A program made the position numbers and the translations under genes. From an uncultured Alphaproteobacteria bacterium (GTDB lineage Bacteria > Pseudomonadota > Alphaproteobacteria > ATCC43930 > CGMCC-115725): 64,000 nucleotides of DNA. Of the stretch, positions 1 to 29,406 are shown in pieces. The notes under the pieces were generated by a model. That model made no database searches, was not told the origin of the DNA, and saw only the letters and a list, made by a program, of their open reading frames with translations. Within the stretch, counting starts at the first letter, position 1. Every line of letters starts with the position of its first letter. Where the stretch lies: positions 1 through 64,000 of the forward strand of contig CAVSTA010000025.1 in the NCBI GenBank assembly GCA_963730745.1, read 5' to 3'.

Positions 1-106
1 TTTCCATCCCTGACCGGTGGTCGACAGCCCGGTGATGGTGTTCGCCGCTGCCACATGTAGAATACGGGAGAATACGGTTGACTACACAATCTGGCTCGGA
101 GCGGAC

Positions 107-363
107 ATGGCGGGAAAGAATGTGCTCACGGTTGGAGTCTCGGCAGAGCTTCAAGACCGTCTCGACGCGATCGCCGCGCCATCGACCGACCAAGATCATG
201 GGTCGTCAACCGAGCACTCGAGGCGTTCGTGGAATCCGAAGCGTGGCGGATCGAGGAAATAAAACGCGGACTCGCCGAAGCGGATGCGGGTGAATTCGCG
301 AGCGATGCAGAGGTCGGCGCGATTTTCGAGAAGTGGCGCCGCGTAGATCGCGATGCGGGTTAG
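107..363 (+). pseudogene. ParD-like ribbon-helix-helix antitoxin, frameshifted (N-term MAGKNVLTVGVSAELQDRLDAIAA in one frame, C-term RAIDRPRSWVVNRALEAFVESEAWRIEEIKRGLAEADAGEF in another)
   Basis: Translation in two frames gives a contiguous ParD/CopG-like sequence. The stop overlaps the ATG of the downstream ParE toxin. Confidence 0.55.
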
Positions 364-637
364 GTGGTTGCGGGCCGGCCTCCGTAACCTCGATCAGCAT
401 GCGGACTACATAGCCAGGGATGACCCGATCGCGGCCCAGAATGCCGTGCAGCGCATTCGAGCGGCGGTCGATCAGCTCGCGGATTACCCGAATATGGGTC
501 GTACCGGCGGGGTTCCGCTGACGCGCGAACTGATCGTCGGCGGGACACGCTGGATCACCGTCTATCGCGTCCGCGAAGACGTGGTCGAGATAATCCGCGT
601 GCTGCACGGAGCGCAATTATGGCCGCCGCAGCGGTAA
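353..637 (+). CDS. parE: ParE/RelE-family type II toxin
   Basis: 94 aa with ParE-like motifs (LDQHADYIARDDPIAAQNAV...YPNMGR...TRELIV...YRVREDVVEIIRVLHGAQ). The ATG overlaps the antitoxin stop. Confidence 0.7.
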   Translation: MRVRWLRAGLRNLDQHADYIARDDPIAAQNAVQRIRAAVDQLADYPNMGRTGGVPLTRELIVGGTRWITVYRVREDVVEIIRVLHGAQLWPPQR

Positions 638-728
638 TAGCCAGTCCGCTGCATCTTCAGCGGCGCCGTGCTAGATTGACCGGGTGAGTGGCGGAAGAGC
701 CGCCGGCGAACATCTGCGAGGCAACAGC

Positions 729-995
729 GTGAACCCTCTTCTGGAACAAATCTCTATCGATCCCAGAATTTGCGGTGGCAAGCCCTGCATAAAGGGCACC
801 CGGATTTGGGTTTCGCTCATCCTCGATTTTCTTGCCGACGACATGACCGAGGCTGAACTGCTGGCGGAATATCCGGGGCTCACGCACGAGGACGTCTTGG
901 CGGCGATCGCATATGGCGCCGAAGCAGCCCGGAATGCGTCATCCCTGTCCTCGCCGAAAATGCGGCGTGAAATTCAAGCTCGACGAGAACCTTAG
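729..995 (+). CDS. DUF433-family antitoxin-like protein
   Basis: IDPRICGGKPCIKGTRIWVSLILDFLADDMTEAELLAEYPGLTHEDVLAAIAYG is a typical DUF433 signature. Likely GTG start at 729; partner of the downstream DUF5615 gene. Confidence 0.6.
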   Translation: MNPLLEQISIDPRICGGKPCIKGTRIWVSLILDFLADDMTEAELLAEYPGLTHEDVLAAIAYGAEAARNASSLSSPKMRREIQARREP

Positions 996-1334
996 CCGGC
1001 GCGCGGCCGATCTGATCCGTGCTGCAGGCCACGACGCCGTCACGGTCGTCGGTCATAGGGCTGCGTGGGGCGGCGGACGAGACGCTGTTCGAAATATGCG
1101 GGCGCGAAAGCCGAGTACTTATCAGAGTTGGATCGCGATTTTGGCCAAGTGCTTCGCTACCGGCCCGCTGCCAGCGCCGGCATAGTGATACTCGAAATCG
1201 GGCCTCGCGCCACACATGGAGCCCTCCTCGATCGCGTGCGAGAGCTGCTAACCGTACTCGCTACGCGGTCGCCGGAAGGCTCATTGTGGATCGTCGAACC
1301 CGGGCGTCTTCGAAATCCACCTCCCGTCGGATGA
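967..1334 (+). pseudogene. DUF5615 (PIN-like) toxin partner of DUF433, split over three frames
   Basis: VKFKLDENLSRRAADLIRAAGHDAVTVV / GLRGAADETLFEICGRESRVLI / TLDRDFGQVLRYRPAASAGIVILEIGP...LWIVEPGRLR are consecutive DUF5615 segments in three different frames (two frameshifts). Confidence 0.5.
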
Positions 1335-1348
1335 GGAAACGCAATAAA

Positions 1349-2290
1349 AGGCGCGCGGCGAGCGGCGGCGGGTGCGCTCGGATTGGATGGCGGTCGAGCG
1401 CGAGCGCGGCATCTCGGTCTCCTCGGCGGTGATGAGCTTCGAGCACGGGGGCTCGCCTTCAACCTGCTCGACACGCCGGGCCACCAGGAATTCAGCATTC
1501 GAGGACACCTACCGACCCTGACCGCGGTCCCCAGCGCGGTGATGGTGCTGGACCCGCCCATGGCGCCAAGGGCATCGAGGAGCAGACCCGTAAGCTCTTC
1601 GAGGTCTGCCGGCTGCGCGACGTGCCGATCATCACCTTCGTCAACAAGCTCGACCGCGAGAGCCGCGACCCGTTCGACCTGTTGGACGAGATCGAGCAGG
1701 TCTCTGGGGCTCGACGTGATCCCGGCCTCCTGGCCGATCGGCATGGGGCGCGACTTTCTCGGCACCTACGACCTGTTCGCCGATGCGCTGTTATTGTTCG
1801 AGCGCGGCGTCCACGACCGCGTCACCGAGCCGGTCCGTGCAGCGGCCTCGATGACCCGCAATTGCCGCGGCTCCGGCCGAAAGCCGCCCTCGCCAAATTG
1901 CGCGAGGAGATCGAGATGGCGAAGGGGTTGTGCCCGCCTTTCGACCCTGAGGCTCATCGCGAGGGCCATTTGACGCCGGTCTATTTCGGCCGGTGCGCTG
2001 AACAATTTTGGCGCGCGCGGACTGCTGGCCGGGGTCGGCGAACTGGCTCCGGCGCCGCGCCCACAGCTAGCCGCGCCGCCGGCCAATCTCGCCCGAGGAG
2101 CCCGCGGTCACCGGTTTTCGTCTTCAAGGTGCAGGCCAATATCGACCCGCAGTACCGCGACCGCATCGCCTTTGTGCGGATCGCCTCCGGCCGTTTTCAG
2201 CGCGGCATGGAATTGAGGAACATCCGCTCCGGGCGGCTATCGGCCCGCTCGGGGCGTCCAACATCAGTTCAAATTGAGCAGCAAGCGCGG
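1349..2290 (+). pseudogene. prfC: Peptide chain release factor 3 (prfC) fragment, roughly aa 45-345, with many frameshifts, truncated at the AT-rich islet
   Basis: RF3 segments in shifting frames: KARGERRRVRSDWM..ERGIS, NLLDTPGHQEFS, LTAV, RKLFEVCRLRDVPIITFVNKLDRESRDPFDLLDEIEQV, WPIGMGRDFLGTYDLF, FVFKVQANIDPQYRDRIAFVRIASGRFQRGMELRNIRSGR. Confidence 0.7.
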
Positions 2291-2300
2291 GTATGTGTAC

Positions 2301-2570
2301 CTAGAGTCCTACCAAACCTCTCCGATGCAATAACGTAAGATAACATCTGCTCAGCACCTGCACCGCCGGCTCATAGCGCGCATCCTGAGATGGGACATAA
2401 TCGAAATTATCTTCCAAATTCTTATTCTCAAGAACGTAGTTTTGATTATAGATTTGTAGTTCCGTTACTACCCTTTTCGCGCACTCTGAAGCTAGCTGTT
2501 GCGCGTCCACTAGCGCCAATGCGCTCTTAGCGCTTCTTGCGCACAGTTCTCCGAGATATACATCTTTCAC
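2301..2570 (-). CDS. Hypothetical protein (89 aa), third gene of the AT-rich islet
   Basis: ORF in ~42% GC DNA, in contrast to ~67% flanks. GTG start preceded by GAGG, 16 nt after the upstream gene stop. No recognisable domain. Confidence 0.35.
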   Translation of the reverse strand: MKDVYLGELCARSAKSALALVDAQQLASECAKRVVTELQIYNQNYVLENKNLEDNFDYVPSQDARYEPAVQVLSRCYLTLLHRRGLVGL

Positions 2571-2586
2571 CAGCCTCAGAGCCCTT

Positions 2587-2997
2587 TCACGGACTTCTAA
2601 TTGGGATATTTCGCACGCGCGTCAAGCAGCCACAGTGCTTCATGAAAGTCAAGGTTAAGATATGATCGCAACGTAAAGCGTCCCACGCGCTACATGCTCT
2701 CGCCATGCTATCCGTAATTAGATCATATTGACCCAATGCCAAGTTCGGCTTTCTGCGCAATAAGTTTTGCCACTGTGGGTCAACCATGAGCCACGCACGC
2801 AACATGACTGCGACTTCATCTGGAGTAAAAGTATGCAAAATGCCAGAGCTAGCCTTGCTAGCGAGAGTTACCGCGAACCTCGCGTTCGCAACGAGAACTC
2901 TGGCTTGCTGAATATACCATTTCTGGTGAATTTGGAAGCTGTTCATCAACCCCAAATTCATCGCTTTGGCTAGTTCCGTAAGACTAGGCGCGGGCAT
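2587..2997 (-). CDS. Hypothetical soluble protein (~136 aa), second gene of the AT-rich islet
   Basis: Internal ATG (MPAPSLTELAKAM...) overlaps the stop of the upstream membrane-protein gene in another frame, suggesting translational coupling. AT-rich composition; no recognisable domain. Confidence 0.35.
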   Translation of the reverse strand: MPAPSLTELAKAMNLGLMNSFQIHQKWYIQQARVLVANARFAVTLASKASSGILHTFTPDEVAVMLRAWLMVDPQWQNLLRRKPNLALGQYDLITDSMARACSAWDALRCDHILTLTFMKHCGCLTRVRNIPIRSP

Positions 2998-3314
2998 CGT
3001 TGTACATCCCCGACGATCGTAATCGGTGGCACCGCGATTAGTAATATGATCGTATATAGCGAATAAGGTAACCAGACGCTCAACAACATTAATGATGGAT
3101 AAGTAAATATAATGTAAGATCCCGTACAGGCGACGATAATAATAGCAAGAGGAAGCCAATAACAAAGGCGGCGTAGAATATGACATATGGGCGCGCTTCC
3201 TTCTCTCATATAGGCAGTATAAACGGAATATAGATTACCAAACACCGATAGAAGCAATGAGCCGCTGGCGATAAGCGCTGAAACCAGGAAGGCTTCTAAC
3301 TGTGTCTCAGTCAA
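2970..3314 (-). CDS. Small membrane protein with ~3 predicted TM helices (114 aa), first gene of the AT-rich islet
   Basis: Hydrophobic segments LVSALIASGSLLLSVF, YWLPLAIIIVACTGSYIIF, LLSVWLPYSLYTIILLIAVPPI. Likely TTG start. Confidence 0.4.
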   Translation of the reverse strand: MTETQLEAFLVSALIASGSLLLSVFGNLYSVYTAYMREGSAPICHILRRLCYWLPLAIIIVACTGSYIIFTYPSLMLLSVWLPYSLYTIILLIAVPPITIVGDVQRCPRLVLRN

Positions 3315-3467
3315 ATCGTTTCAGGCCTGGTAGGGGTAAGGGGATGCGCTACCATACGTCGGGCGTTGCCGAGAAGGCCGGCGCTCATCATGTACTCGGC
3401 TCGACCGTAGGCCCAGCGGAACTGCGTCGAGAGACGGCCAGACCCCAGCAACCAGCTGAAGCGGATT

Positions 3468-3760
3468 GATGAGACGAGACCCTCCGCCGGCGGACGTTTG
3501 CGATCATTTCGGACCCCGGAGCCCGCAAGACGACACTGACCGAGAAATCGCTGCTGTTAGGCGTCGCGATCCAGCTCGCGGGCGAGGTGAAGGCGCGCGG
3601 GGAGCGACGGCGGGTGCGCTCGGATTGGATGAAGACGAGCGTAAGGGTGGCGATCTCTTTCTCCTCGGCGGTGATGAGCTTCGAGCACGAGGGGCACGCT
3701 TATGAACACTGCTCAATACGGTGGGCCACCAGGATTATCGGGAGGACACGTAGCGGTTCC
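3468..3760 (+). pseudogene. prfC: Second, diverged prfC N-terminal fragment (roughly aa 8-110) with an internal stop and frameshifts
   Basis: RRTFAIISDPGARKTTLTEKSLLLGVAIQLAGEVKARGERRRVRSDWM...SSAVMSFEHEGH...LLNTVGHQDYREDT*. About 80% DNA identity to 1349-1500. Confidence 0.55.
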
Positions 3761-3792
3761 GGCTTGGAGCACTGACCAAAGATTCGGTTGCC

Positions 3793-3900
3793 ATAATCGC
3801 ATGGTACGTCGGCGCATATCGGCGCCCGAGATCGGCAGGCAGTAGGCTTTTGGAGGGAGTTGGGAATACCTGATCTCAACCTGATAAAACAGGCAAAACA
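3793..3900 (+). repeat. Copy 1 of a ~110 bp conserved junction motif (ccataatcgcat ... ttggagggagttgggaatacctgatctcaacctgataaaacaggcaaaacagg)
   Basis: Shares the 12-mer, an SD-like box and an MPDL(D/N)LIKQ-coding start with copies at ~6600-6730 (-) and ~23500-23650 (-). Confidence 0.5.
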
Positions 3901-3927
3901 GGTGACGCGGTTAAGGTTGAGAGGTGC

Positions 3928-4290
3928 TCGATCCCGGGCTCGGCGAACCCTATCTCTATCGCCAGCTGGTCGGCCCCTGGATCCTTAACTTTCCGACGAA
4001 GGGTCACTGGCGCGCCGTATCTAACTTTCTGACATCTGGCGGGTATCCAATACCTGGTTGATCATTACAAAGAATGGGGTATTACCTCTATTGCTGTGCC
4101 GCCGCTTGGCTGCGGCAATGGGCAGCTTGATTGGAACGTCGTCGGCCCAACCCTATATCGATACCTCGCCGAGCTTAAAATCCCTGTTGAGCTGTACGCC
4201 CCGATCGGCGCGCCTGCTGAGCAGTTTCTGACGCGGCCAAATTCTGCCGCGACCTCGGGAGAGCCGCTCCGAGTGGTCGGGGCACGTCTA
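3928..4290 (+). pseudogene. Macro-domain (DarG-like ADP-ribose-binding fold) fragment, frameshifted
   Basis: GEPYLYRQLVGPWILNFPTKGHWRAVSNFLTSGG then GIQYLVDHYKEWGITSIAVPPLGCGNGQLDWNVVGPTLYRYL; the FPTK.HWR...SIAVPPLGCGNGGLDW pattern resembles DarG-type macro domains, recalled from memory only. Stop and frameshift present. Confidence 0.4.
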
Positions 4291-4299
4291 CGGCCAAGT

Positions 4300-4450
4300 C
4301 AGAGCCGAATTGGAGCGAACAGGTCAGCTTGCCGGGCCCCATGATATGTTGATCGGTGCACATGCGCGGAGCGCGGGCCTAATCGTTGTGACCAACAATC
4401 TCCGGGAGTTCGAACGTATCCCCGGTTTACGGATCGAGAATTGGGTGTAA
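4300..4450 (+). pseudogene. C-terminal fragment of a VapC PIN toxin (paralog of vapC at 7409-7810)
   Basis: GPHDMLIGAHARSAGLIVVTNNLREFERIPGLRIENWV* closely matches the C-terminus of the intact VapC. Confidence 0.55.
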
Positions 4451-4521
4451 TTATAGCGGGGAATTGCTCGTAATCGGAGAGTTCAGCGGGGCGGCAGGGG
4501 CCCCCCGCGGTTTAAGGAGCA

Positions 4522-5079
4522 TCAGGCTCGCGAATGCTCCATGGGCGGGCGCTCCGAGGCCGATTGGCTCGTGAAGGGCCGCAGTGCCTCCGGCGTGCGC
4601 ATGTCGCGCGGCGGGGTGAAATCCTTTCTTGCGATGCCGCGCATTTCTTCCGGCGGGCGCGGCATGCCGCGGCGATCGCTGTAATCGGGCGCCGGCCGGC
4701 TTGTGCCGGTAAGGGCCTGAGCAGTGATGCAGTCGAGCGCGGTCACGCCCGCCACTGCGGCGAGCGCAATGGCGACATTGCCTTTGCGCGGATTTTGCTC
4801 GTCGAGCCCGGTGGCGAGAGTCGCCAGATCGAGCGCATCGCCCGCAACCCGTCCCCAGATCCATGGACCCGGATTGTCGCTCATCAATATGCCGACGCCC
4901 GCCGCCATTTCGCGGGCGCCGTAAAACCGCAGCAGCGATTCTTTGCCTTGCATTCCCATTTGCTCGGTCAGCATCCTCGGCGCCAGCATCTCGGCGAGGC
5001 CGAGCCCGATGCTGAACCAGCCGAGACCGCGCGCCAGCGCCATTGCCGTGCCGTTCTGTCGATACGCCATGACATTCAC
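4522..5079 (-). CDS. Hypothetical membrane-associated protein
   Basis: 185 aa ORF immediately downstream of the dehydrogenase, with hydrophobic stretches. No domain recognised. Confidence 0.35.
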   Translation of the reverse strand: MNVMAYRQNGTAMALARGLGWFSIGLGLAEMLAPRMLTEQMGMQGKESLLRFYGAREMAAGVGILMSDNPGPWIWGRVAGDALDLATLATGLDEQNPRKGNVAIALAAVAGVTALDCITAQALTGTSRPAPDYSDRRGMPRPPEEMRGIARKDFTPPRDMRTPEALRPFTSQSASERPPMEHSRA

Positions 5080-5084
5080 CCCTT

Positions 5085-6254
5085 TTACGGTTTGAGCACG
5101 ACCTTGACGCAGCCGTCTTCCTTGTCGCGGAACGTCTTGTACATACGCGGACCGTCATCGAGGCTGACCTTGTGGGTGATGACGAACGACGGGTCGATCT
5201 GGCCCTCCTCGATGCGGTGCAGCAGATCGTCGGTCCAGCGGTTCACATGCGTCTGCCCGGTGCGCAAGGTCAGGCCCTTGTTCATGAACATCCCCATCGG
5301 GATTTTGTCCAACAGCCCGCCATAGACGCCCGGCATCGAGACCGTGCCTGCCGGACGGCAGACGTAAAAGATTTCCCTCAGCACGTGCGGCCTGTCCGTC
5401 TCGAGCATCAGCATCTGTTTCGCGCGGTCGTACATCGAGTCGATCGTGGCGGTGGCGTGCGCTTCCAGCCCGACCGCATCGATGCATTTCTCCGGCCCCT
5501 TGCCGTCGGTCAGGTCGTTCAGGCGCTCGACGACGCTCTCCTCTTCGAAATTGATCGTGATGGCGCCGCCGGCGCGCGCCATGCTGAGCCGCTCGGGCAG
5601 CCGGTCGATCGCAATGACCTGCTTGGCGCCGAGCAGGACGGCGCTGCGGATCGTCATCTGGCCGACCGGGCCGGCGCCCCAGATCGCCACCGTATCGGTC
5701 GGCTCGATGTCGCACTGGACCGCCGCCTGCCAGCCGGTCGGGAAGATGTCGCTGAGGAACAGCACCTTCTCGTCGTCGATCCCATCCGGGATCTTGACCG
5801 GGCCGACATCGGCGTAGGGAACGCGGACATATTCGGCCTGGCCGCCGGGATAACCGCCCGTCAAATGCGTATAGCCGAAGAGCCCGGCAGTCGTGTGCCC
5901 GAAGACCTTGTCGGCGAGATCCTTGTTGCGGTTGGTGCGCTCGCAGACCGAGAAATTGCCGCGCTTGCACTGGTCGCACTCGCCGCAGATGATCGTGAAC
6001 GGCACGACGACGCGGTCGCCGACTTTCAGCTTCTTGTTCTCCGAGCCGACCTCGACCACCTCGCCCATGAACTCGTGGCCCATGATGTCGCCGGATTTCA
6101 TACCCGGCATGAAGCCGTCGTAGAGGTGCAGGTCGGAGCCGCAGATCGCGGTGCTCGTGACCTTGACGATGGCATCGCGCGGATGCTCGATCCGCGGGTC
6201 AGGAACGCGGTCGCACCGAATGTCCTCTTTGCCGTGCCAGCACAGAGCTCTCAT
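5085..6254 (-). CDS. Zn-dependent alcohol dehydrogenase family protein, glutathione-independent formaldehyde dehydrogenase-like
   Basis: 389 aa with [27 protein letters not shown]-x2-C-x2-C ([10 protein letters not shown]) and a GAGPVG Rossmann motif. Confidence 0.75.
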
Positions 6255-6599
6255 CAGGAATTTCTCCTTCGGATTTGCCGAGCGGCTTGCCGCCCTATGA
6301 GGCGAAAACCGGGGCCGGCCGAGTTCGTTCCTGATTAGGCGACTTTCATGGACAGGGCGCCGTCTGCTCGCGTTGGGGTTGACGCACCGCCGATCGTCTC
6401 CACGACCGCTGTTCTGCCGGTTGCCTGACTTCGCACAATCCGTGATTAGAGTCGATTATTCCATCTTGCTGCATCTGCAGCAAATCAGCAGCAAAGCCTC
6501 GCCCATAGGTTGTTGAGCATGCCCGACCCGGAGCCGCCATCCCCGTCAAAGCAACGCCGCCGCGGCGAGCGTGGATTTCCTGCGCGAGCCGGCCCGCCG

Positions 6600-6730
6600 A
6601 CCGGGGGATCCGCCCTTGGCTGCCGCTCGTGCCGGTGCCTCGCTCCCTGTTTCCCCTGTTTTATCTGGTCGAGATCAGGCATCCGCAACTCCTTCAATCG
6701 CAATCCCGCACCCGCTCACGGGCTCGAGTG
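6600..6730 (-). repeat. Copy 2 of the conserved junction motif (ttgaaggagttgcggATGcctgatctcgaccagataaaacagg ... atgcgattatgg)
   Basis: See 3793-3900. Lies in the ~600 bp non-coding stretch between the dehydrogenase and the resolvase remnant. Confidence 0.5.
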
Positions 6731-6853
6731 TATAATGCGATTATGGTAATTGCGTGACGTTTATGCCATATTCACCAGACGGGCCGGCGCAATTCGACGC
6801 GCTTAGGCCATTTGTCCGATAACGCAAATGGGTTATGCATCCCGCAACTTATG

Positions 6854-6990
6854 ACCGAAACTCACCCGCAAAACCGCCGTTTCGGCTATGCCCGCGTCAG
6901 CACTGTCGGCCAGACGCTCGACAGCCAGCTTGAGCAGCTACGCGCCGCAGGATGCGCCGCCAAGATTTACCGCGAGAAGCAGCGCTGGTT
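6854..6990 (+). pseudogene. Serine recombinase (resolvase/invertase) N-terminal remnant
   Basis: MTETHPQNRRFGYARVSTVGQTLDSQLEQLRAAGCAAKIYREK matches the first ~43 aa of the resolvase catalytic domain, then diverges. Confidence 0.55.
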
Positions 6991-7178
6991 GCCGTTTGCG
7001 GGCGCGGTCGGGTGGGTCCTCGACGGAGCAAAATTATATTGCTTAGCGCGAGGTGGTCCAACTGGTCGGATCGGCCGGATGCCGTGAAACCGGGCATTGC
7101 CTTCTGCGCAAGCAGAACCCTTGAAACGAGCGCGATGGATGGAGCTATGTATATCCCGCTTGGATATACGAGAAGAAG

Positions 7179-7412
7179 ATGGCTCACTCGAGGATTTTTA
7201 AGACCAACCGAACCCAGGCGGTGCGCCTGCCGAAAGCGGTGGCATTCCCCGACCACGTACGCGAGGTCGAAATAATCCAGCTCGGCCAGAGCCGACTTAT
7301 AGTTCCCGTAGGGTTGCGCTGGGACGACTTCTTCCGGAATGGGCCGTCCGTATCCGAGGATTTTATGCAAGACCGGGAGCAGCCCGCCGCCGAGAGGCGA
7401 GAGCAGCTTTGA
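7179..7412 (+). CDS. vapB: VapB (AbrB/SpoVT-type) antitoxin
   Basis: MAHSRIFKTNRTQAVRLPKAVAFPDHVREVEIIQLGQSRLIVP; 4-nt overlap with vapC. Confidence 0.7.
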   Translation: MAHSRIFKTNRTQAVRLPKAVAFPDHVREVEIIQLGQSRLIVPVGLRWDDFFRNGPSVSEDFMQDREQPAAERREQL

Positions 7413-7810
7413 TGCTGCAATACATGCTGGATACGAACATCTGCGTCTACGTGCTCAAGAAACGCCCGGAGCAGCTGCGCGAAAGGTTCAACCGCTTGGC
7501 CGGGCAGCTTTGCATTTCCACGATCAGCCTAGCCGAGTTGTTGTACGGCGTGGAAAAATCATCCCGTCCGAATGAAAACCGCCAAGCGGTCGAGCAATTC
7601 GTCGCTCGGCTCGGTGTCCTGCCATTCTCGGCGTCGGCGGCCTCTCATTACGGGCAAATTAGGGTCGCTCTGGAGGGGGCCGGTCGACCGATCGGCGCGC
7701 ACGACATGCTGATCGGGGCCCACGCCCGCAGTGAAGGGATGACCGTCGTGACCAATAACCTCCGCGAGTTCGACCGTATTCCCGAGCTTGGAACGGAGAA
7801 TTGGGTTTAG
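7409..7810 (+). CDS. vapC: VapC PIN-domain toxin
   Basis: MLDTNICVYVLK...ISTISLAELLYG...HDMLIGAHARSEGMTVVTNNLREF. PIN motifs, 133 aa. Confidence 0.8.
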   Translation: MMLQYMLDTNICVYVLKKRPEQLRERFNRLAGQLCISTISLAELLYGVEKSSRPNENRQAVEQFVARLGVLPFSASAASHYGQIRVALEGAGRPIGAHDMLIGAHARSEGMTVVTNNLREFDRIPELGTENWV

Positions 7811-7811
7811 T

Positions 7812-8389
7812 TCACTGATCGGCCATCACCCGCGCCGCCAGCGCGGTCATGACCAGCGACAATCCGAAAAAGAGCATGTTGATGCCGACCAGGAGGCCGA
7901 TCGCCCAGTCGGCCGAGCTCGGCCATCCTGCCCAGATCAGGTAGGCGAGCAACAGGTCGACAATCCCGCTGAACAGCACCCAAACCCAACTGCGCAGATG
8001 CCGGCGATGTTCGATCGCGCCGATGATCGAGGCGATCCCCTCGACGATGAAGAACGCAACCAGCACCATCGTCAATGTCAGCACGCCAGCTAGGGGCCGC
8101 AGGATCAGTATCAGGCCCAACGCAACCGACAGCAGGGCTGTCAGCATCGACCAGGCAAAGCCCGGCATCTGCGCGAATGCCACGCCGAGGCGGCGCGGAA
8201 GACGCCTGCAATGAAGAACAGCCACCCGGCAAAGAGCGTCACCGCCACTGTGGCGACGTTGGGTTCGGCGACCGCCAGGAACCCCAGCACCATCATGACG
8301 ATGCCTTGGATCAGAAACAGCTTCCAATGTCTGTGTATCGTCAGCGCCAACTGGCTGCGCAGCCCGTCGATATCCGTTTGATTGCTCAT
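7812..8389 (-). CDS. HdeD-like (DUF308) acid-resistance membrane protein, one apparent frameshift
   Basis: N-term ORF (MSNQTDIDGLRSQLALTIHRHWKLFLIQGIVMMVLGFLAV...) and C-term ORF (repeated TM helices) lie in different frames. Confidence 0.5.
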
Positions 8390-9493: not shown

Positions 9494-10726
9494 TCACACG
9501 ACCCCGTCACTGCGCAGCCGCGCGATATCCGAAGCGCTCATCCCGAGCCACTCCCGGAATACGTCGGCGGTGTGCTCGCCGAGCAGCGGCGCCGGCTCGA
9601 CCGGGGCCATAGCGCCGTCGAAGCGCACCGGGAAAGTCGGCATGCGCAACTCCCCATTGGGGTGCCGCATGGTCTGGATGATGCCGCGTTTCTCGAAGCT
9701 GGGTTCACCCAGCAAGTCGCCGCTGTCGAGCACCGCGCCGGCCGGCACGCCGGCGCCGCCGATCAGGCGCATCGCCTCGTGCTTGTCGTGCCGCTGCGTC
9801 CAGTCAGTGATAATCCGGTCGATTTCGGCTTCGTTCTGGCCGCGCGCCTCGCGGGTCGCAAAGCGCGGATCCGCGATCAGATCCTCCTGCCCGATGACCT
9901 TCAGCAGCCGCTGCCAGTGCTCGGGGTTGGCGGGGCTGGTGAAGACGTAGACATAGTCGTTGGGGCCGCCGGGCTTGCACGGATAGATGCCGGCAGGCGC
10001 CATGCCGCCGGCCAGTGACTTGGCGCCGTTGCGCATTGCCGGCTCGCCGCTCCTCGCATGCTGCACAAAGGCGCTGCGGGTGTATTGCAATTGGGCGTCC
10101 TGCATCGCGATCTGCAATCGGCGTCCCTGGCCGGTGGTATGCCGCTGATAGAGCGCGCCCAGGATGCCGATCGCCAACAGCATGCCGGTGCCGGTGTCGC
10201 CCAATGTCGGCCCCGGCTTGCACGGCCGCCCATCGCGCTCGCCGGTGATCGCCATCGTGCCGCCGCAGGCCTGCGCGATCATATCGAAGGCGAGGTTGTT
10301 CTCGTAGGGGCTGCCCTCGCCGAAACCCTTTACCTGCGCGTAGACGAGGCGGGGGTTGAGGGCGTGCAATACTTCCCAGCCGAGCCCCAGCCGCTCGATC
10401 GCGCCGGGGGCGAAATTCTCGACAAAAACATCCGCGTGCTTTGCCATTTCCTTGACGAGCCGCAGGCCGCGCTCGGATTTGAGGTCGACCGTGGCGGATT
10501 TTTTGTTCGCGTTGTAGATCATGAAATAATAAGCGTCGGCGCCGGGCTGCGGCCCCGAGCCGAGCACGCGGCCGGGCTCGCCGCCCTTCGGGTTCTCGAC
10601 TTTGACGACCTCGGCGCCGAGCCAGGCCAGAGCCTCGGTGCAGGACGGCCCGGCCTCGAATTGCGAAAGGTCGAGAACCCGGACACCGTCGAGACAATTC
10701 GGCGCTGCGCCTGCTCCATCCATCAC
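9494..10726 (-). CDS. CoA-transferase family III (CaiB/BaiF; formyl-CoA transferase-like)
   Basis: 410 aa with GVRVLDLSQFEAGP, ADVFVENFAPG, LGDTGTGM. Confidence 0.75.
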   Translation of the reverse strand: MMDGAGAAPNCLDGVRVLDLSQFEAGPSCTEALAWLGAEVVKVENPKGGEPGRVLGSGPQPGADAYYFMIYNANKKSATVDLKSERGLRLVKEMAKHADVFVENFAPGAIERLGLGWEVLHALNPRLVYAQVKGFGEGSPYENNLAFDMIAQACGGTMAITGERDGRPCKPGPTLGDTGTGMLLAIGILGALYQRHTTGQGRRLQIAMQDAQLQYTRSAFVQHARSGEPAMRNGAKSLAGGMAPAGIYPCKPGGPNDYVYVFTSPANPEHWQRLLKVIGQEDLIADPRFATREARGQNEAEIDRIITDWTQRHDKHEAMRLIGGAGVPAGAVLDSGDLLGEPSFEKRGIIQTMRHPNGELRMPTFPVRFDGAMAPVEPAPLLGEHTADVFREWLGMSASDIARLRSDGVV

Positions 10727-21066: not shown

Positions 21067-21361
21067 GCGGTGACCGCGCCGGCGCACTGATCAGTCCCGG
21101 GCGCTCCTCTCCAGCCGGATGGCGGCATCAATGAGTGATGACCATGTCGGCCGTCACGGCGAGCGATGGCGCCTCGACTTCTCGACCGGCCTCATTGCCT
21201 GCACCGGAATGCGGTTGGCGCAGCCGCAGGTCTGGCCGCGTTGGCTGCGGCGATCGCTCCCTTGACCGTCATCTCGGATTTGTCGCATGGGAGACGAGCC
21301 CGGAATTTCGCAGGACGAATTTTCACGCGCTTCGCGGAGGGCACTATCGGGAGGGGATCCG

Positions 21362-22438
21362 ATGACCACGGGAGCGGCGGGTGGTTTGAGCGCCATCCCG
21401 CAACCGGTAACCGCGGCTCTGACGCGCGCGGCAATCTTTCTGGTCGCGGCGGTGAACCCGGGTGCCGACAATCGCGCCGCCGTGAGATCGCTTTGCGGAG
21501 ACCTCGCCGCGCTTTTGCGTGCGGTCGGTTTTCGCGACCCGGAGGGAAGCCTCTCCTGCGTGATGGCGATTGGGTCCGACGCGTGGGACCGGCTCTTCGG
21601 GCAGCCGCGGCCGGCGGAGTTGCATGAGTTTCGAGAGATCCGCGCGGGACCGCGCCAAGCCGTCTCCACAGCCGGCGATCTGCATTTCCACATCCGCGCG
21701 GAGCGTATGGATCTCTGCTTCGAATTGGCCACGCAAATCATGGCGCGGCTCGGGAATGCCGTTTCAGCGGTCGACGAGGTGCACGGCTTTCGGTCCTTCG
21801 ATACCCGCGATCTTCTCGGGTTCGTCGACGGGACGGAGAACCCCAGCGGCCGGGCAGCAATTGACGCCACGTTGATCGGCGACGAGGACATCGCGTTCGC
21901 GGGCGGCAGCTACGTAATCACGCAGAAATACCTGCACGATCTGACCAGCTGGAATGCGCTGCCTATAGAAGCGCAGGAGCACATCATCGGCCGCACAAAA
22001 CTGTCCGGCATCGAGCTGGATGCGGCGATCAAGCCGAGTTCGGCGCACAGTGCGCTCACCACGATCGTGGAGAACGGGAAGGAGATCAAGATCCTGCGCG
22101 ACAACATGCCTTTCGGCCGTGCCGGGCAGGGTGAGTTCGGCACGTACTTCATCGGCTACAGCCGTTCGCCGCGCACGATCGAGCAGATGCTCGAAAACAT
22201 GTTCGTGGGTCGCCCGCCGGGCAACTACGACCGGCTGCTGGACTTCAGCAGGGCCGTTACCGGCCACCTCTTCTTCGCGCCGTCTGCGACGTTTCTGGAA
22301 AACGTGACAGCCGACGAAGCCCAGCCGGTCGCGCCCGCACAATCCGTTCAGCCCGTGCCGGATGGTTCACCCCTGGCCGATGGTTCGCCCCGGCTCGATG
22401 GTTCGTTGGGCATCGGCTCGCTCAAAGGAGACCCCGGT
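21362..22438 (+). CDS. DyP-type (dye-decolorizing) peroxidase cargo protein with C-terminal encapsulin targeting peptide
   Basis: DyP motifs (HFHIRAERMDLCFE, GFVDGTENP, FIGYSRSP). Ends with a Pro/Ser-rich linker and DGSLGIGSLKG, the canonical encapsulin cargo-loading peptide. No stop codon before the downstream ATG. Confidence 0.75.
22424..22432 (+). promoter_or_regulatory. Ribosome-binding site (aaaggagac) for the encapsulin gene, embedded in the 3' end of dyp
   Basis: AAGGAG ~8 nt upstream of the encapsulin ATG at 22439. Confidence 0.5.
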
Positions 22439-23248
22439 ATGAATAATCTGCATCGCGAGCTTGCGCCGATATCCGAGGCGGCGTGGGCGCAGATCGAGGA
22501 GGAGGCCTCGCGCACCCTCAAACGCTACCTCGCCGGGCGCTGCGTGGTCGATGTGCAAGGGCCGAGCGGCACCGCCCTCTCGGCGGTCGGCACCGGTCAT
22601 CTGCGGGCTATCGCGGCGCCAGCGGAAAGCATCATCGCCCGGCAGCGCGAGGTGAAACCGTTGGTCGAGTTGCGCGTGCCGTTCGAGTTGGACCGCCAGA
22701 TGATCGACGATGTCGAGCGCGGCGCAAACAATTCCGATTGGCAGCCCGCAAAGGATGCCGCGCGACGGATCGCTTTTGCCGAGGACGGCGCCATTTTCGA
22801 GGGCTATCCTGCGGCCGGTATCGAAGGCATCCGCCAGGGGACCAGCAATCCGATTACGACATTGCCGAGCGACGTGCGTAATTACCCCGACGCGATCGCC
22901 CAGGCGTTGAACCAGCTGCGTCTGGTCGGGGTCAACGGTCCTTACTCGGTGCTGCTGGGCGCCGACGCCTATACCGCCCTCGCCGAGACCAGTGACAACG
23001 GGTATCCGGTGCTGCAGCACATCAGGCGTCTCGTCGATAGCGAAATCATCTGGGCCGCGGCCATTGCGGGCGCTTTTGTCGTCACCACCCGCGGCGGCGA
23101 TTTCGACCTGCACATCGGCCAGGACATCTCGATCGGCTATCTGAGCCACACCGATGCCGCCGTTCGCCTGTACCTGCAGGAGACGTTCACCTTCCTCCTG
23201 CTGACCACAGAGGCCGCCGTGGCGCTGGCGCCTGCGTCGGCATCCTGA
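22439..23248 (+). CDS. Family 1 encapsulin (linocin M18-like) shell protein
   Basis: 270 aa: MNNLHRELAPISEAAWAQIEEEA...PFELDRQ...NPITTLPSD... is typical HK97-fold encapsulin. In frame with upstream dyp. Confidence 0.8.
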   Translation: MNNLHRELAPISEAAWAQIEEEASRTLKRYLAGRCVVDVQGPSGTALSAVGTGHLRAIAAPAESIIARQREVKPLVELRVPFELDRQMIDDVERGANNSDWQPAKDAARRIAFAEDGAIFEGYPAAGIEGIRQGTSNPITTLPSDVRNYPDAIAQALNQLRLVGVNGPYSVLLGADAYTALAETSDNGYPVLQHIRRLVDSEIIWAAAIAGAFVVTTRGGDFDLHIGQDISIGYLSHTDAAVRLYLQETFTFLLLTTEAAVALAPASAS

Positions 23249-23499: not shown

Positions 23500-23650
23500 C
23501 ATCTCGACCCGCAAAAAACGCCTGCGCCCATCGCGCACCCCCTGTTCCGCCTGTTTTATCAGGTCGAGATCAGGCATCGCCAACTCCTTCAAAAACAAAA
23601 GGCCCCGCTCGCGGGGCGCCGATCTCGCAACGATACGATGCGATTATGGC
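23500..23650 (-). repeat. Copy 3 of the conserved junction motif (ttgaaggagttggcgATGcctgatctcgacctgataaaacagg ... atgcgattatgg)
   Basis: See 3793-3900. Confidence 0.5.
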
Positions 23651-23669
23651 GACTTTACTGTTGCTTACT

Positions 23670-26433: not shown

Positions 26434-26823
26434 CTACTTCAGGACATTGCGTGCCAACCCGTGGGCGGCCTGCGCCAGCCGATCGTCATTCGTCCATAAG
26501 GCAGCGCATTGATGATGCTGGGCGCAAGCGAGGTGCAGCGCATCTGGTGTCCTCAAACCAAAGTGACCGCGGAGCTGGGCGGCTTGCAGGTAAACCGGCT
26601 CGGGCATTTCCAACGACGCGAACTGGTCGAAGAGGTCGATATAGGCGCGCTGCAGAACTGGATCCCCACGCTTGATGGGCCCTACCAGACACTCGCATTT
26701 GACCAGCGGGGAGATGCCGAAGCGGGCTCCTTCGGCTTGGGCGATCGCGCCTGCGACGGGCTCGCCCCACCGCGCATGATGCTCGGTAAGGTAGATCACC
26801 AGGCAGGCGTCGAGATAGATCAA
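26434..26823 (-). CDS. vapC: VapC PIN-domain toxin (GTG start overlapping the phd stop)
   Basis: [17 protein letters not shown]...[14 protein letters not shown]...[29 protein letters not shown]. Confidence 0.7.
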
Positions 26824-27086
26824 TCCCACGAGCTTCTCTCCAGCCGGATGGCGGCATCGATCTCCTCGGCAGAACGTCGCGCGTAGGCGGGCAGGGGATG
26901 GCCCTTGAGCCAGTCGAGAATGGCCCGGGCGCTGCCCGCATCTGCTCTTGCCGCCGGCGCCGGTCCCGTAGGCACCAGCCGAACCACCGGTTCGCCGCGG
27001 TTGGCGATGACCACCTCCTCGCCGGCCCGAGCGGCTCTTATCAGCTGTGAGAGGCGGTTCTTCGCCTCCAAGATGTTTACTTGCAC
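26820..27086 (-). CDS. phd: Phd/YefM-family antitoxin
   Basis: [39 protein letters not shown]. Confidence 0.7.
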
Positions 27087-27129
27087 GAGCCCCTACTCCG
27101 ACCTTCTCCTGGCTAGAGATGGCTATACT

Positions 27130-27414
27130 AGCCAGATGTGTAAAGGCATGTCGGTCGATGCCGCCCATGCAGAGGTATTTGACTTCGAGGAATTCCTCGA
27201 TGCCGTATTTCGAGCCCATGATCGCGGGGCCGATGCCGCTTTCCTTCATGCCGCCGAAGGGGGCGATCTCGGTCGAGATGATGCCTTCGTTGATGCCGAC
27301 GATGCCGTATTCGAGCGCCTCGGCGACGCGCCAGATGCGGCCGATGTCGCGGCTGTAGAAATAGGCGGCGAGGCCGAATTCGGTGTCGTTGGCCCATCTT
27401 TGTGGCGTCGTCAT
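27130..27414 (-). pseudogene. gabD: gabD 3'-end copy (aa ~393-end) without a stop, reading through into the phd/vapC region
   Basis: [55 protein letters not shown]...[17 protein letters not shown]. Confidence 0.6.
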
Positions 27415-28298: not shown

Positions 28299-28967
28299 GA
28301 CCGCGAACCCGACCGCAACAACGTCCTGGCCCCCTTGCGAAGTTGCTCGAACAGCGCCGCATCCACGGGCTGGTTGAGAAAGCCGTGCGCGACGGCGTTA
28401 CGAACCGCAAGCCCGCGGCGGAGAACGGAATAATCGTCGTCCTCGATGATGCCCTCGGTCAGCAGCATCTTGATAAGCGCCGATGAGGAAATCCGGCGGG
28501 TGGGCGGGATCTTCAGGGGCAAGAGCCGGTGGCGCCCGGCCGCTTCGATAATCGACCATAGCAACAGAAATTCCAGGCGGCGCTGCATCGCCGTCTTCGT
28601 CGACCGAGCTCAGGTTTGCCAGGCGCGCCGAAAGATCTGGAACATCGGGCAGCTGCGAGGGCGGCGCCCATTCCGGATCCGGCAAGTCGGCGTACACTAC
28701 TTGCAGCTTCCAGCCGGCGCGATGCTCCAATGCCCTGGCGAACTGCTGGACTTGTTCGAAGCTCGCCGGCGAAGAGGTCTTGATTTCGACGACGATATTT
28801 TCCCCATTGCGATGGGCGATCAGATCCGGCGCCAGCGTGCGCAAAAACTCCGGCAATTCTCGTGGTGAAGGGTCTACCGAAACCTGGTAGCCTTGGCGCG
28901 AATACCAATCAGCATACTGTCTGATAGCTTCGCGTTCGCTGGCGACGAGGTCGGTGTCGGCACTCAT
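28295..28967 (-). CDS. Putative two-domain protein, apparently frameshifted: N-terminal PD-(D/E)xK-like nuclease fold plus C-terminal HEPN-like region with an Rx4HG motif
   Basis: N-term ...[23 protein letters not shown] (a D...E.K pattern); C-term frame ...[26 protein letters not shown] overlaps the RusA stop (ATGA). Domain assignments rest on motifs only. Confidence 0.35.
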
Positions 28968-29340
28968 GGGATCCTGCTGTGGTCGGGCGCCGGATCGGCA
29001 CGCACGTAAACGAAATCAGAACCTGCCTGCGACATGCGCTCGATTGCGTCCAACAGATATAGGCTCGCTCCGGTCAACGATAACCCAGCGCTGAAGCGGC
29101 TTTTGCGGATCAAGATCTCCGAGACCTGCTGGTCGTCCCGAAAAAGTACGCCCTTGAGACCGTCGAGCAAAGATTTCGCTATGTTGTCGACATCAAGCGT
29201 GGTTTCGCCCTGATAGAAATAGATGATCAAGACCGCGACATCCTGGTCTGTCGGTTCGCCCTCCTGTTCCAAACGTTCCCGAGCCGCTCGCGACACCCGT
29301 TCGCGCCATCGGCGCCGCGAGCGTGCGATTTGCATTCGCG
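28964..29340 (-). CDS. rusA: RusA-like Holliday-junction resolvase
   Basis: ...[39 protein letters not shown] matches the RusA DxDNxxKxxxDaL...DD.qV catalytic signature. Confidence 0.55.
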
Positions 29341-29406
29341 CTGCGGGGCGCGCCGGCAACGATAAACTCCATCCCGGTTCATCGCGCCGACGTGCCGTCG
29401 AGCCGG

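What the first reader, a model, noticed from the sequence alone, without database searches (positions are those of the whole stretch)
1340..3770. AT-rich three-gene islet truncating prfC, with a second diverged prfC 5' fragment downstream in permuted order
A ~1 kb segment (2290-3330) at ~42% GC sits in a ~67% GC background. It carries a three-gene minus-strand operon: a 3-TM membrane protein (2970-3314), an overlapping 136 aa soluble protein (2587-2997) and an 89 aa protein (2301-2570). None has a recognisable domain. The islet truncates a heavily frameshifted prfC copy (aa ~45-345) at 1349-2290. A second, diverged prfC N-terminal fragment (aa ~8-110) lies after it at 3468-3760. The order is therefore C-part, islet, N-part, which is not what a simple insertion into prfC would give. 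The neighbourhood is full of TA and defence debris (ParDE, DUF433/DUF5615, macro-domain fragment, vapC fragment). A small membrane protein plus coupled partners in a laterally acquired islet is a typical layout for abortive-infection or toxin-type modules.
Basis: partly seen in the sequence, partly recalled or inferred. Interest (0 to 1): 0.65.

Follow-up and report, generated by a model that had tools for sequence, protein, structure and literature searches.

The report
Decayed copy of unknown three-gene module
The AT-rich islet is a broken copy of a real but uncharacterised three-gene module (a small membrane protein plus two small soluble proteins) that moves between soil bacteria and probably acts as a cell-killing or phage-defence switch; the prfC pieces around it are old rearrangement debris.

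Summary
Window 2301-3314 is 46.8% GC against 64.8% overall. It carries three minus-strand ORFs: A (three membrane helices), B and C. Two prfC pseudogene pieces flank it.

The three genes form a conserved unit. The same A-B-C triad occurs in at least seven other sequence contexts, including Skermanella stibiiresistens SB22. It always has the same A/B overlap and is always more AT-rich than its flanks. All three genes are under purifying selection (dN/dS 0.10-0.45). None matches Pfam, NCBIfam, PHROGs, PADLOC or PDB. The B model (pLDDT 86.5) has no structural neighbour.

One relative fuses a TIR domain to a full B domain, lies directly after an integrase, and has no A or C. That looks like an effector swap, which favours a conflict module (abortive infection or toxin type). 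This function is inferred, not shown.

The window copy is decayed: each gene carries a frameshift relative to its relatives.

The islet did not simply insert into prfC. The triad/prfC-5' junction is shared with an independent metagenome contig, and the two prfC pieces overlap as a 2,242-bp-period direct repeat. That points to duplication or rearrangement followed by decay.

Overall: a modestly interesting new family, of which this window holds a dead copy.

The parts
1348..2236 (+). prfC pseudogene fragment 1 (RF3 aa ~47-338), with multiple frameshifts and no P-loop
   Evidence: tblastn with RF3 maps it in frames 1, 2 and 3. Three-frame translation shows it directly. EF-G_D2 Pfam hit on ORF 1622-2338. 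The left boundary is sharp at 1348, with an in-frame TAA just before it.
1348..1489 (+). Left copy of the direct repeat (prfC aa ~47-95). Its partner is 3590-3734; the period is 2,242 bp.
   Evidence: the repeat finder families D1, D2 and D8, spacing 2242-2245. blastn gives 84% over 146 nt. Alignment A10.
2237..2300 (.). Junction between prfC fragment 1 and the triad block. Homology to L001 runs from about 2245 to the C stop codon.
   Evidence: Local alignment with L001 is significant only for the first ~55 nt after the C stop. Identity over 2245-2300 is 75%.
2301..2570 (-). Gene C (relatives ~87-100 aa). Small, acidic and helical, with a conserved C-terminal ...LLHRRGLVG[FL]. The window copy has a 1-nt deletion at ~2529 that replaces the N-terminal ~13 residues.
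   Evidence: (alignment A9). dN/dS is 0.20-0.45 between intact copies. The AF2 model is only pLDDT 69.7.
2587..2997 (-). Gene B (relatives 111-115 aa). Basic and all-helical. The start MPAPSLTE at 2997 is confirmed. The window copy has a +1 frameshift at ~2677, so its C-terminus (the conserved Y..I end) is replaced and the ORF is extended to 136 aa.
   Evidence: AF2 pLDDT 86.5, pTM 0.79. dN/dS 0.11-0.16.
2970..3314 (-). Gene A (relatives mostly 111 aa). Three-TM membrane protein with a nearly invariant N-terminal ~45 residues. The window copy has a 2-nt deletion at ~3018 that replaces the near-invariant C-terminal ISWGMxKDARP.
   Evidence: (alignment A4). dN/dS 0.10-0.15.
3315..3475 (.). Spacer between A and prfC fragment 2, co-inherited with both
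   Evidence: Continuous alignment with L001; identity 87.5% over 3315-3670. No sigma-70-like promoter was called upstream of A in this spacer; the only call in 2100-3700 lies inside gene A.
3476..3768 (+). prfC pseudogene fragment 2 (RF3 aa ~9-101). The P-loop is degenerate (DPGARKT). It is divergent from A, and its 3' part (3590-3734) is the right copy of the direct repeat.
   Evidence: The same arrangement, also with in-frame stops, is present in L001.

Best explanation
Window 2301-3314 is a pseudogenised copy of a conserved, horizontally mobile three-gene module, A-B-C.

The three proteins in intact copies:
- A is a ~111-aa three-TM inner-membrane protein.
- B is a ~112-aa basic helical cytosolic protein. 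Its start overlaps the end of A by 11-14 nt, so the two are translationally coupled.
- C is an ~88-aa acidic helical protein and the fastest-evolving of the three.

Proposed mechanism (inferred, not shown): the module is a conflict system of the abortive-infection or toxin type.
- B is the common sensing or regulatory core.
- A is the effector, which damages or depolarises the membrane once released.
- C is the neutralising or trigger-sensing partner of A.
- In a sister architecture, A and C are replaced by an N-terminal TIR (NADase-type) domain fused to B.

In this window the module is dead, because each gene has a frameshift.

The flanking prfC pieces are not two halves of a gene split by the islet. 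The triad and a prfC pseudogene 5' part were already neighbours, as they are in contig L001. A duplication or rearrangement with a 2,242-bp period, followed by end deletions and decay, produced the order prfC(47-338) - triad - prfC(9-101).
For: Shown:
- The unit is conserved with the same order and A/B overlap in L001, L002/3, L004/5, L008-10, L012/13, Skermanella L016 and L018/19. L006 carries A and partial B at a contig end.
- DNA homology between contexts starts 15-77 nt before A and stops at the C stop codon.
- dN/dS is 0.10-0.45.
- The triad is 7-18 GC points below its flanks in all seven loci examined.
- Contexts are integrase or resolvase genes, IS elements and TA genes.
- P0050 is TIR_2 (Pfam E 2e-8) followed by a full B domain (hhalign probability 99.7%, E 1.5e-25). 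It lies 25 nt after a tyrosine integrase gene, and neither A nor C is present.
- The window frameshifts are at ~3018 (A), ~2677 (B) and ~2529 (C). They destroy near-invariant termini.
- prfC: the direct repeat; L001 shares the triad/prfC-5' block; in the overlap, L001 is 93% identical to fragment 1 but only 77% to fragment 2.

Inferred:
- The roles of A, B and C.
- Membrane damage as the output.
- The order of rearrangement events.
Against: - No protein of the triad matches any defence, toxin or antitoxin family. PADLOC gave nothing, even for the TIR fusion. Pfam, NCBIfam, PHROGs and PDB sequence searches gave nothing.
- The TIR fusion is a single 50%-identity cluster, seen on three contigs.
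- A's N-terminal TM region is unusually conserved for a simple pore-forming effector.
- No canonical promoter was called upstream of A in the window, L005 or L008.
- For prfC, the unequal divergence of the two repeat copies does not fit a clean recent tandem duplication, and the left junction is unique to this window.
Confidence: 0.5

Rival explanations
1. The triad is an addiction (toxin-antitoxin-like) module. It stabilises the integrative elements or islands that carry it rather than defending against phage. A is the membrane toxin. B and/or C are labile neutralisers.
For: - It always lies in mobile or variable DNA next to recombinases, IS elements and classical TA pairs.
- A and B are translationally coupled.
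- It is absent from phage and IMG/VR collections.
- Several copies are found decayed: the window, L007 and L011.
Against: - It is absent from 72,556 plasmid records, where addiction modules are usually common.
- TIR fusions are best known from anti-phage systems (established knowledge).
- There is no DNA-binding antitoxin-type domain.
- This rival overlaps mechanistically with the best explanation and cannot be separated from it in silico.
Confidence: 0.2
2. The triad serves the biology of the mobile element itself: control of integration, excision or inversion, or entry exclusion. B would act as a small basic accessory factor of the neighbouring recombinases.
For: - B is small, basic (+5) and helical.
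- The TIR-B gene sits 25 nt after a tyrosine integrase.
- A resolvase gene or fragment lies convergent just downstream of C in L002, L008/9 and L012/13.
- The window has a resolvase N-terminal fragment at 6812-6979.
Against: - The recombinase type and position vary: tyrosine, serine or none.
- A membrane partner and a TIR fusion are not expected for a directionality factor.
- No HTH or excisionase-like hit or fold was found.
- No terminal repeats bound the unit.
Confidence: 0.1
3. The prfC pieces mark an attachment site. An integrative element that targets the 5' end of prfC (as SXT/R391 ICEs do) carried the triad at its prfC-proximal end. Serial or tandem integrations left hybrid prfC fragments.
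For: [quoted passage not shown]
- The triad abuts a prfC 5' piece both in the window and in L001.
- Fragment 2 ends at aa ~101, and unrelated mobile or TA debris follows.
- The fragments are direct repeats, as attL and attR would be.
Against: - The ORFs scanned within 8 kb gave no integrase hit; there is only a resolvase fragment.
- No intact prfC is present anywhere in the 64 kb.
- Both pieces, and the L001 copy, are pseudogenes with stops or frameshifts.
- Fragment 1 extends to aa 338 on the wrong side of the triad for a simple attL/attR pair.
- In six other contexts the triad has no prfC neighbour.
Confidence: 0.12
4. The islet is a contaminant or a misjoined contig, or its ORFs are chance ORFs in AT-rich DNA.
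For: There is an abrupt 18-point GC drop. The left junction at ~2240 is unique to this window.
Against: - An independent ENA forest-soil contig (L001) spans the right junction, from the triad into GC-rich prfC DNA, at 88-95% identity.
- The same GC contrast is seen in seven loci, including a 153-kb contig and a cultured genome.
- Purifying selection acts on all three genes.
- 0 of 2000 shuffles give the same ORF coverage.
Confidence: 0.03

Closest known systems
TIR-domain anti-phage proteins (Thoeris ThsB-type and other bacterial TIR effectors)
   Same: One relative (P0050) has an N-terminal TIR_2 domain containing the S..C.FEL motif. It is fused to a complete B domain and sits at the integrase end of an element. 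This looks like the effector interchange (TM protein versus TIR) seen in many defence systems.
   Different: The window triad has no TIR. No ThsA or SIR2/SLOG partner is present. PADLOC models do not hit P0050 or any triad protein. NADase activity is untested.
Abortive-infection modules with a small multi-TM effector and cytosolic partner(s) (for example lambda RexAB, Kiwa KwaAB, TM effectors of CBASS/Pycsar)
   Same: A small membrane protein is co-encoded and translationally coupled with a soluble partner. The module lies in mobile or TA-rich DNA, has a patchy distribution and a foreign composition.
   Different: There is no sequence or fold similarity to any of them. There is no nucleotide-signal synthase. 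There are three genes. A's first TM helix is almost invariant.
Class I holins / phage lysis cassettes
   Same: A is ~111 aa with three TM segments.
   Different: There is no endolysin or spanin next to it, and B and C have no lytic domain. The triad is absent from 50,697 phage records and from IMG/VR.
[quoted passage not shown]
   Same: Foreign DNA is joined to the 5' part of prfC, and prfC-derived direct repeats are present (PMC4344509).
   Different: No integrase hit was found nearby and no intact prfC is restored. The order is permuted, and the prfC pieces are pseudogenes. The GC content and best DNA hits suggest an alphaproteobacterial-type host.
Type II toxin-antitoxin pairs (ParDE, VapBC, DUF433-type) that surround it
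   Same: Small, coupled genes clustered in the same debris-rich neighbourhood.
   Different: There is no homology to them. The module has three genes and a membrane component, and no DNA-binding antitoxin domain is recognisable.

Membership tests
Thoeris / TIR defence systems | A TIR-domain protein is encoded in the module | tested here: not met
   None of window A, B or C has a TIR hit. Only the distant relative P0050 carries TIR_2.
Thoeris / TIR defence systems | A ThsA-type (SIR2/Macro/SLOG) partner is present and recognised by system models | tested here: not met
   PADLOC gave no hit for the triad proteins, P0050 or neighbours. No such gene is called in L014 or L015.
Membrane-effector abortive-infection module (generic kind) | A small multi-TM protein is co-transcribed with soluble partner(s) | tested here: met
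   A has three TM segments; B and C are soluble. The A/B overlap of 11-14 nt is conserved.
Membrane-effector abortive-infection module (generic kind) | The effector is interchangeable with other toxic domains across relatives | tested here: met
   The TIR-B fusion lacks A and C. It is a single cluster only.
Membrane-effector abortive-infection module (generic kind) | Confers phage resistance through growth arrest or death of the infected cell | not testable with these tools
   Requires expression and phage-challenge experiments.
Type II toxin-antitoxin systems | Toxin and antitoxin belong to recognised families, or the antitoxin has a DNA-binding fold | tested here: not met
   No Pfam, NCBIfam or PDB hits. 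The B model has no HTH/RHH-type neighbour. The C model is too weak to judge.
Class I holin / lysis cassette | Three-TM protein of about 95-130 aa | tested here: met
Class I holin / lysis cassette | Adjacent endolysin, and a location in a phage or prophage lysis region | tested here: not met
   No lysin domains. No phage or IMG/VR occurrence.
SXT/R391-like prfC-integrating element | A tyrosine integrase at the element end, and a functional prfC restored at attR | tested here: not met
   The ORFs scanned in 1-8000 gave no integrase hit. There is no intact prfC in 64 kb, and the fragments carry frameshifts or stops.
SXT/R391-like prfC-integrating element | Short identical core repeats at both junctions inside the 5' end of prfC | tested here: inconclusive
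   The ~146-nt overlapping prfC repeats are 84% identical. No empty site is available for comparison.
Autonomous transposable element / integron cassette | Terminal inverted repeats or an attC-like palindrome bounding the unit, plus a transposase | tested here: not met
   No shared inverted repeats at the ends in seven loci. No transposase-like domain.

The most novel reading that the evidence does not exclude
The B domain defines a previously undescribed defence-system family in soil Alphaproteobacteria. In it, one helical sensor/adaptor domain drives interchangeable effectors: either a three-TM protein with its small partner C, or a fused TIR NADase. The nearly invariant first TM helix and Cys-rich loop of A would form a new kind of membrane effector.
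Probability: 0.35. Interest if true: 0.6.

Novelty: new member of a known kind. Interest (0 to 1): 0.4.

Why it matters
If the triad is a working conflict module, it adds three protein families with no annotation (no Pfam, PADLOC or PDB relative) to the set of small membrane-effector systems. It also comes with a natural TIR-for-TM effector swap that makes the hypothesis directly testable. An intact copy is available in a cultured strain, Skermanella stibiiresistens SB22.

For this genome the practical message is smaller. The locus is non-functional debris in a TA- and MGE-rich stretch. The odd prfC order reflects duplication and decay, not a new insertion mechanism. The 199-aa ORF (2587-3186), which appears to be deposited as a protein in NCBI, spans a frameshifted pseudogene.

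Tried and rejected
- **Family libraries.** Pfam, PHROGs, PADLOC and NCBIfam on A, B, C and the 199-aa ORF gave only noise. Per-member Pfam scans of the A, B and C alignments gave nothing consistent. Profile searches of PDB sequences gave nothing.
- **Exact look-ups.** The window's B and C proteins are not on record.
- **Genome scans.** The first pattern set found nothing. The full B-family alignment was too diverse to use. The second scan found only Skermanella.
- **Viral and plasmid collections.** IMG/VR gave nothing for B and one spurious out-of-frame 17-aa hit for A. Plasmid and phage tblastn gave no match. Megablast of window 1-8000 against plasmids hit only the ADH gene.
- **Mobility signatures.** No terminal inverted repeats bound the triad.
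- **RNA.** No RNA family was found in 1-8000.
- **Promoters.** The scans found no promoter-like site upstream of A in the window, L005 or L008; the only calls lie inside gene A (window) and downstream of C (L005). By eye, L005 and L008 share TTGACT-N14-TATA(G/A)A upstream of A, but the spacing is not canonical.
- **A call I withdrew.** I first took the 717-aa gene upstream of the triad in L006 for a primase. It has no Pfam hit, so I dropped that.
- **L001 tail.** I tested whether L001 also carries prfC fragment 1 beyond the C gene. The nucleotide similarity is not significant, and there is only a weak amino-acid hint.
Full report
**1. What is in the window**

- 200-nt windows between 2300 and 3300 are 43-52% GC; both flanks are 62-69%.
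- The islet 2301-3314 is 46.8% GC and the whole window is 64.8%. GC3 of the three islet ORFs is 0.45-0.55, against 0.75-0.88 for ADH, ParE, VapC and a CoA-transferase nearby.
- The minus strand carries three ORFs:
  - A: 3314-2970, TTG start, 114 aa.
  - B: 2997-2587, 136 aa. A longer 199-aa reading from 3186 also exists.
  - C: 2570-2301, 89 aa.
- Stop-free stretches of 80 codons or more cover the whole minus strand and none of the plus strand. None of 2000 shuffles reaches this.
- A has three hydrophobic segments (about 6-28, 44-72 and 75-105). B (net +5) and C (net -3) have none.
- No RNA family is found in 1-8000.
- The window holds only one copy of the triad.

**2. The three ORFs are a real, conserved unit**

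- B has homologues of 112 aa that all start MPAPSLTE. This fixes the start at 2997.
- A has 25 homologous clusters, mostly 111 aa.
- A profile of B finds 43 representatives among 1.84 billion proteins.
- The triad A-B-C recurs in the same order, with an A/B overlap of 11-14 nt and a B-C gap of roughly 55-105 nt, in:
  - L001 (ENA forest soil);
  - L002/L003;
  - L004/L005;
  - L008/L009/L010 (one of these on a 153-kb contig);
  - L012/L013;
  - L018/L019, a distant branch;
  - the cultured Skermanella stibiiresistens SB22 (L016; B is only 33% identical to the query).

  - L006 carries A and the start of B at a contig end; L007 has B interrupted.
- Between different contexts, DNA similarity begins 15-77 nt before the A start and ends at the C stop codon.
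- No shared terminal inverted repeats bound the unit.
- Nei-Gojobori dN/dS between intact copies is 0.10-0.15 for A, 0.11-0.16 for B and 0.20-0.45 for C. All three are therefore protein-coding genes under purifying selection, and C evolves fastest.
- In every one of seven loci the triad is 7-18 GC points below the rest of the locus.

**3. Contexts**

- The triad always sits in variable or mobile DNA. Its neighbours include:
  - IS-type transposase genes or fragments (L005, L008, L012, L016);
  - a tyrosine-integrase C-terminal fragment (L005);
  - serine resolvase genes or fragments, convergent just after C (L002, L008/9, L012/13);
  - RelE/HTH and acetyltransferase genes (L008);
  - integrases, IS91 and Toprim/AAA_25 genes (L011).

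- It was not found in IMG/VR viral contigs, 50,697 phage records or 72,556 plasmids.
- Pattern-limited scans of 185,579 species-representative genomes found it only once.
- Several copies are decaying. B is interrupted in L007. L011 has A with only a remnant of B.

**4. The window copy is a pseudogene set**

I aligned the window with L001, which is 95% identical in A, 88% in B and 93% over the B-C spacer plus C. The window shows the following changes:

| Gene | Change (window coordinate) | Effect |
|---|---|---|
| A | 2-nt deletion at ~3018 | Replaces the near-invariant C-terminus ISWGMxKDARP |
| A | 3-nt deletion at ~3108 | In-frame |
| B | 1-nt insertion at ~2677 | Replaces the conserved ...AWDAY..I end and extends B from 112 to 136 aa |
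| B | 3-nt insertion at 2696-2698 | In-frame |
| C | 1-nt deletion at ~2529 | Replaces the N-terminal ~13 residues |

- In each case all other family members agree with L001, not with the window.
- A cluster mate of P0001 of 199 aa, from an NCBI contig of 105 kb, is most likely the annotated product of this frameshifted locus.

**5. What the proteins are**

- None of A, B or C, nor their alignments, matches Pfam, NCBIfam, PHROGs, PADLOC or PDB sequences.
- C could only be modelled poorly (pLDDT 69.7). The model is a long helix plus a C-terminal helix. Its extreme C-terminus, LLHRRGLVG[FL], is conserved.
- In A, the first ~45 residues (TM1 and the loop ...REGGAPIC...LCYC) are almost invariant across copies whose B proteins are only about 55-60% identical.

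**6. The functional lead**

- One B-family representative, P0050 (345 aa), has an N-terminal TIR_2 domain (Pfam E 2.2e-8, above the curated cut-off).
- Its TIR contains the motif S..C.FEL. From general knowledge of TIR NADases, this motif holds the catalytic glutamate.
- Residues 229-342 of P0050 are a complete B domain (hhalign probability 99.7%, E 1.5e-25).
- The gene lies 25 nt downstream of a tyrosine integrase gene on three contigs. No A- or C-like ORF is nearby.
- So TIR-B replaces A + B + C. This is the pattern of interchangeable effectors attached to a constant sensing or regulatory part that is typical of abortive-infection and other conflict systems (established knowledge).
- Together with the mobile, TA-rich contexts, the foreign composition, the patchy and rare distribution and the frequent decay, this makes a conflict module the best reading. 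In that reading A is the membrane effector, B the common core, and C the A-specific partner (neutraliser or trigger sensor).
- This is inference. Toxicity, phage protection and protein interactions are all untested.
- I cannot separate phage defence from addiction of the carrier element in silico. A role in recombination control is less likely.

**7. The prfC pieces**

No other prfC is present in the 64 kb.
- Both pieces are pseudogenes.
- They overlap in prfC coordinates. 1348-1489 and 3590-3734 form a direct repeat with a constant period of 2,242-2,245 bp and 84% identity.
- The block from about 2245 (55 nt beyond the C stop) through the triad and spacer into prfC fragment 2 (to about 3670) is collinear with L001 at 88-95% identity. 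L001's prfC piece also carries in-frame stops. The triad and a prfC 5' pseudogene were therefore neighbours before the two lineages split, and this junction is not an assembly artefact.
- In the 73 overlapping columns, L001 is 93% identical to fragment 1 but only 77% to fragment 2. This suggests that fragment 1 is the true continuation of the triad-adjacent prfC pseudogene.
- The simplest history has three steps:
  1. The ancestral state was [triad]-[prfC' 8->338...].
  2. A duplication followed. This was either a tandem duplication or an insertion of slightly more than one 2,242-bp unit.
  3. Both ends were then lost, and decay was uneven.
- A prfC-targeting integrative element, as in SXT/R391 (PMC4344509), remains possible. 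However, the scanned ORFs gave no integrase hit, there is no intact prfC, and there is no prfC next to the triad in the other contexts.
- Whether L001 also has fragment 1 beyond C is unresolved.

**8. Verdict**

The GC figure is off, and the overlap of the prfC pieces and the frameshifts were missed.
The triad is a real, mobile, probably conflict-type module from three unannotated protein families. This copy is dead, and it did not arise by a simple insertion into prfC.
- Novelty lies in the family, not in this locus.

Noticed in passing
window 3787-3902, 6645-6697, 23540-23653; L004 6153-6290; L005 799-936: A short dispersed repeat (50-140 nt, 78-91% identical, in both orientations). In one frame it reads ...MPDLDLIKQ(A/G)(E/K)QG.... 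It occurs three times in the window and also in unrelated metagenome loci that carry the triad. It looks like a MITE- or REP-like element shared by these soil bacteria.
   Followed up: partly
window 4340-4452 versus 7700-7812: The vapC fragment next to the finding is a 75%-identical duplicate of the 3' end of the intact vapC in the VapBC pair at 7179-7810.
   Followed up: partly
window 6812-6979: An N-terminal fragment of a serine resolvase (RFGYARVSTVGQTLDSQLEQLRAAG...), about 74% identical in DNA to the resolvase gene that lies beside the triad in L008/L009. Resolvase genes or fragments accompany the triad in several loci.
   Followed up: partly
window 21287-23248: A single 653-aa ORF combines Dyp-type peroxidase N and C domains with a Linocin_M18 encapsulin shell domain. 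Cargo and shell appear to be fused in one reading frame.
   Followed up: no
window 26434-27414 and 28964-30106: Two ORFs each join part of an aldehyde dehydrogenase (the C-terminal end and the middle, respectively) to foreign domains (PIN; RusA). This suggests an aldehyde dehydrogenase gene split by an inserted element carrying PIN and RusA genes.
   Followed up: no
L007 1397-1942; L011 10001-10440: Other triad copies are also broken. In L007, B is interrupted after residue ~37 by unrelated DNA. L011 keeps A (118 aa) but only the first ~30 codons of B, amid integrase fragments and an IS91.
   Followed up: partly
L005 ~4220-4260; L008 ~9900-9940: A conserved motif, TTGACT-N14-TATA(G/A)A, followed by TGACCTTG...GGAGCCTTGCC, lies upstream of A in several contexts. 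The promoter scanner does not accept it, and its role is unknown.
   Followed up: partly
JGI sample 3300050821, 2,093-bp contig (no DNA available): P0059 is a 190-aa B-domain protein with a C-terminal extension. An overlapping 168-aa gene follows it instead of C, and no A-sized gene lies upstream. This is possibly a third architecture of the family.
   Followed up: no
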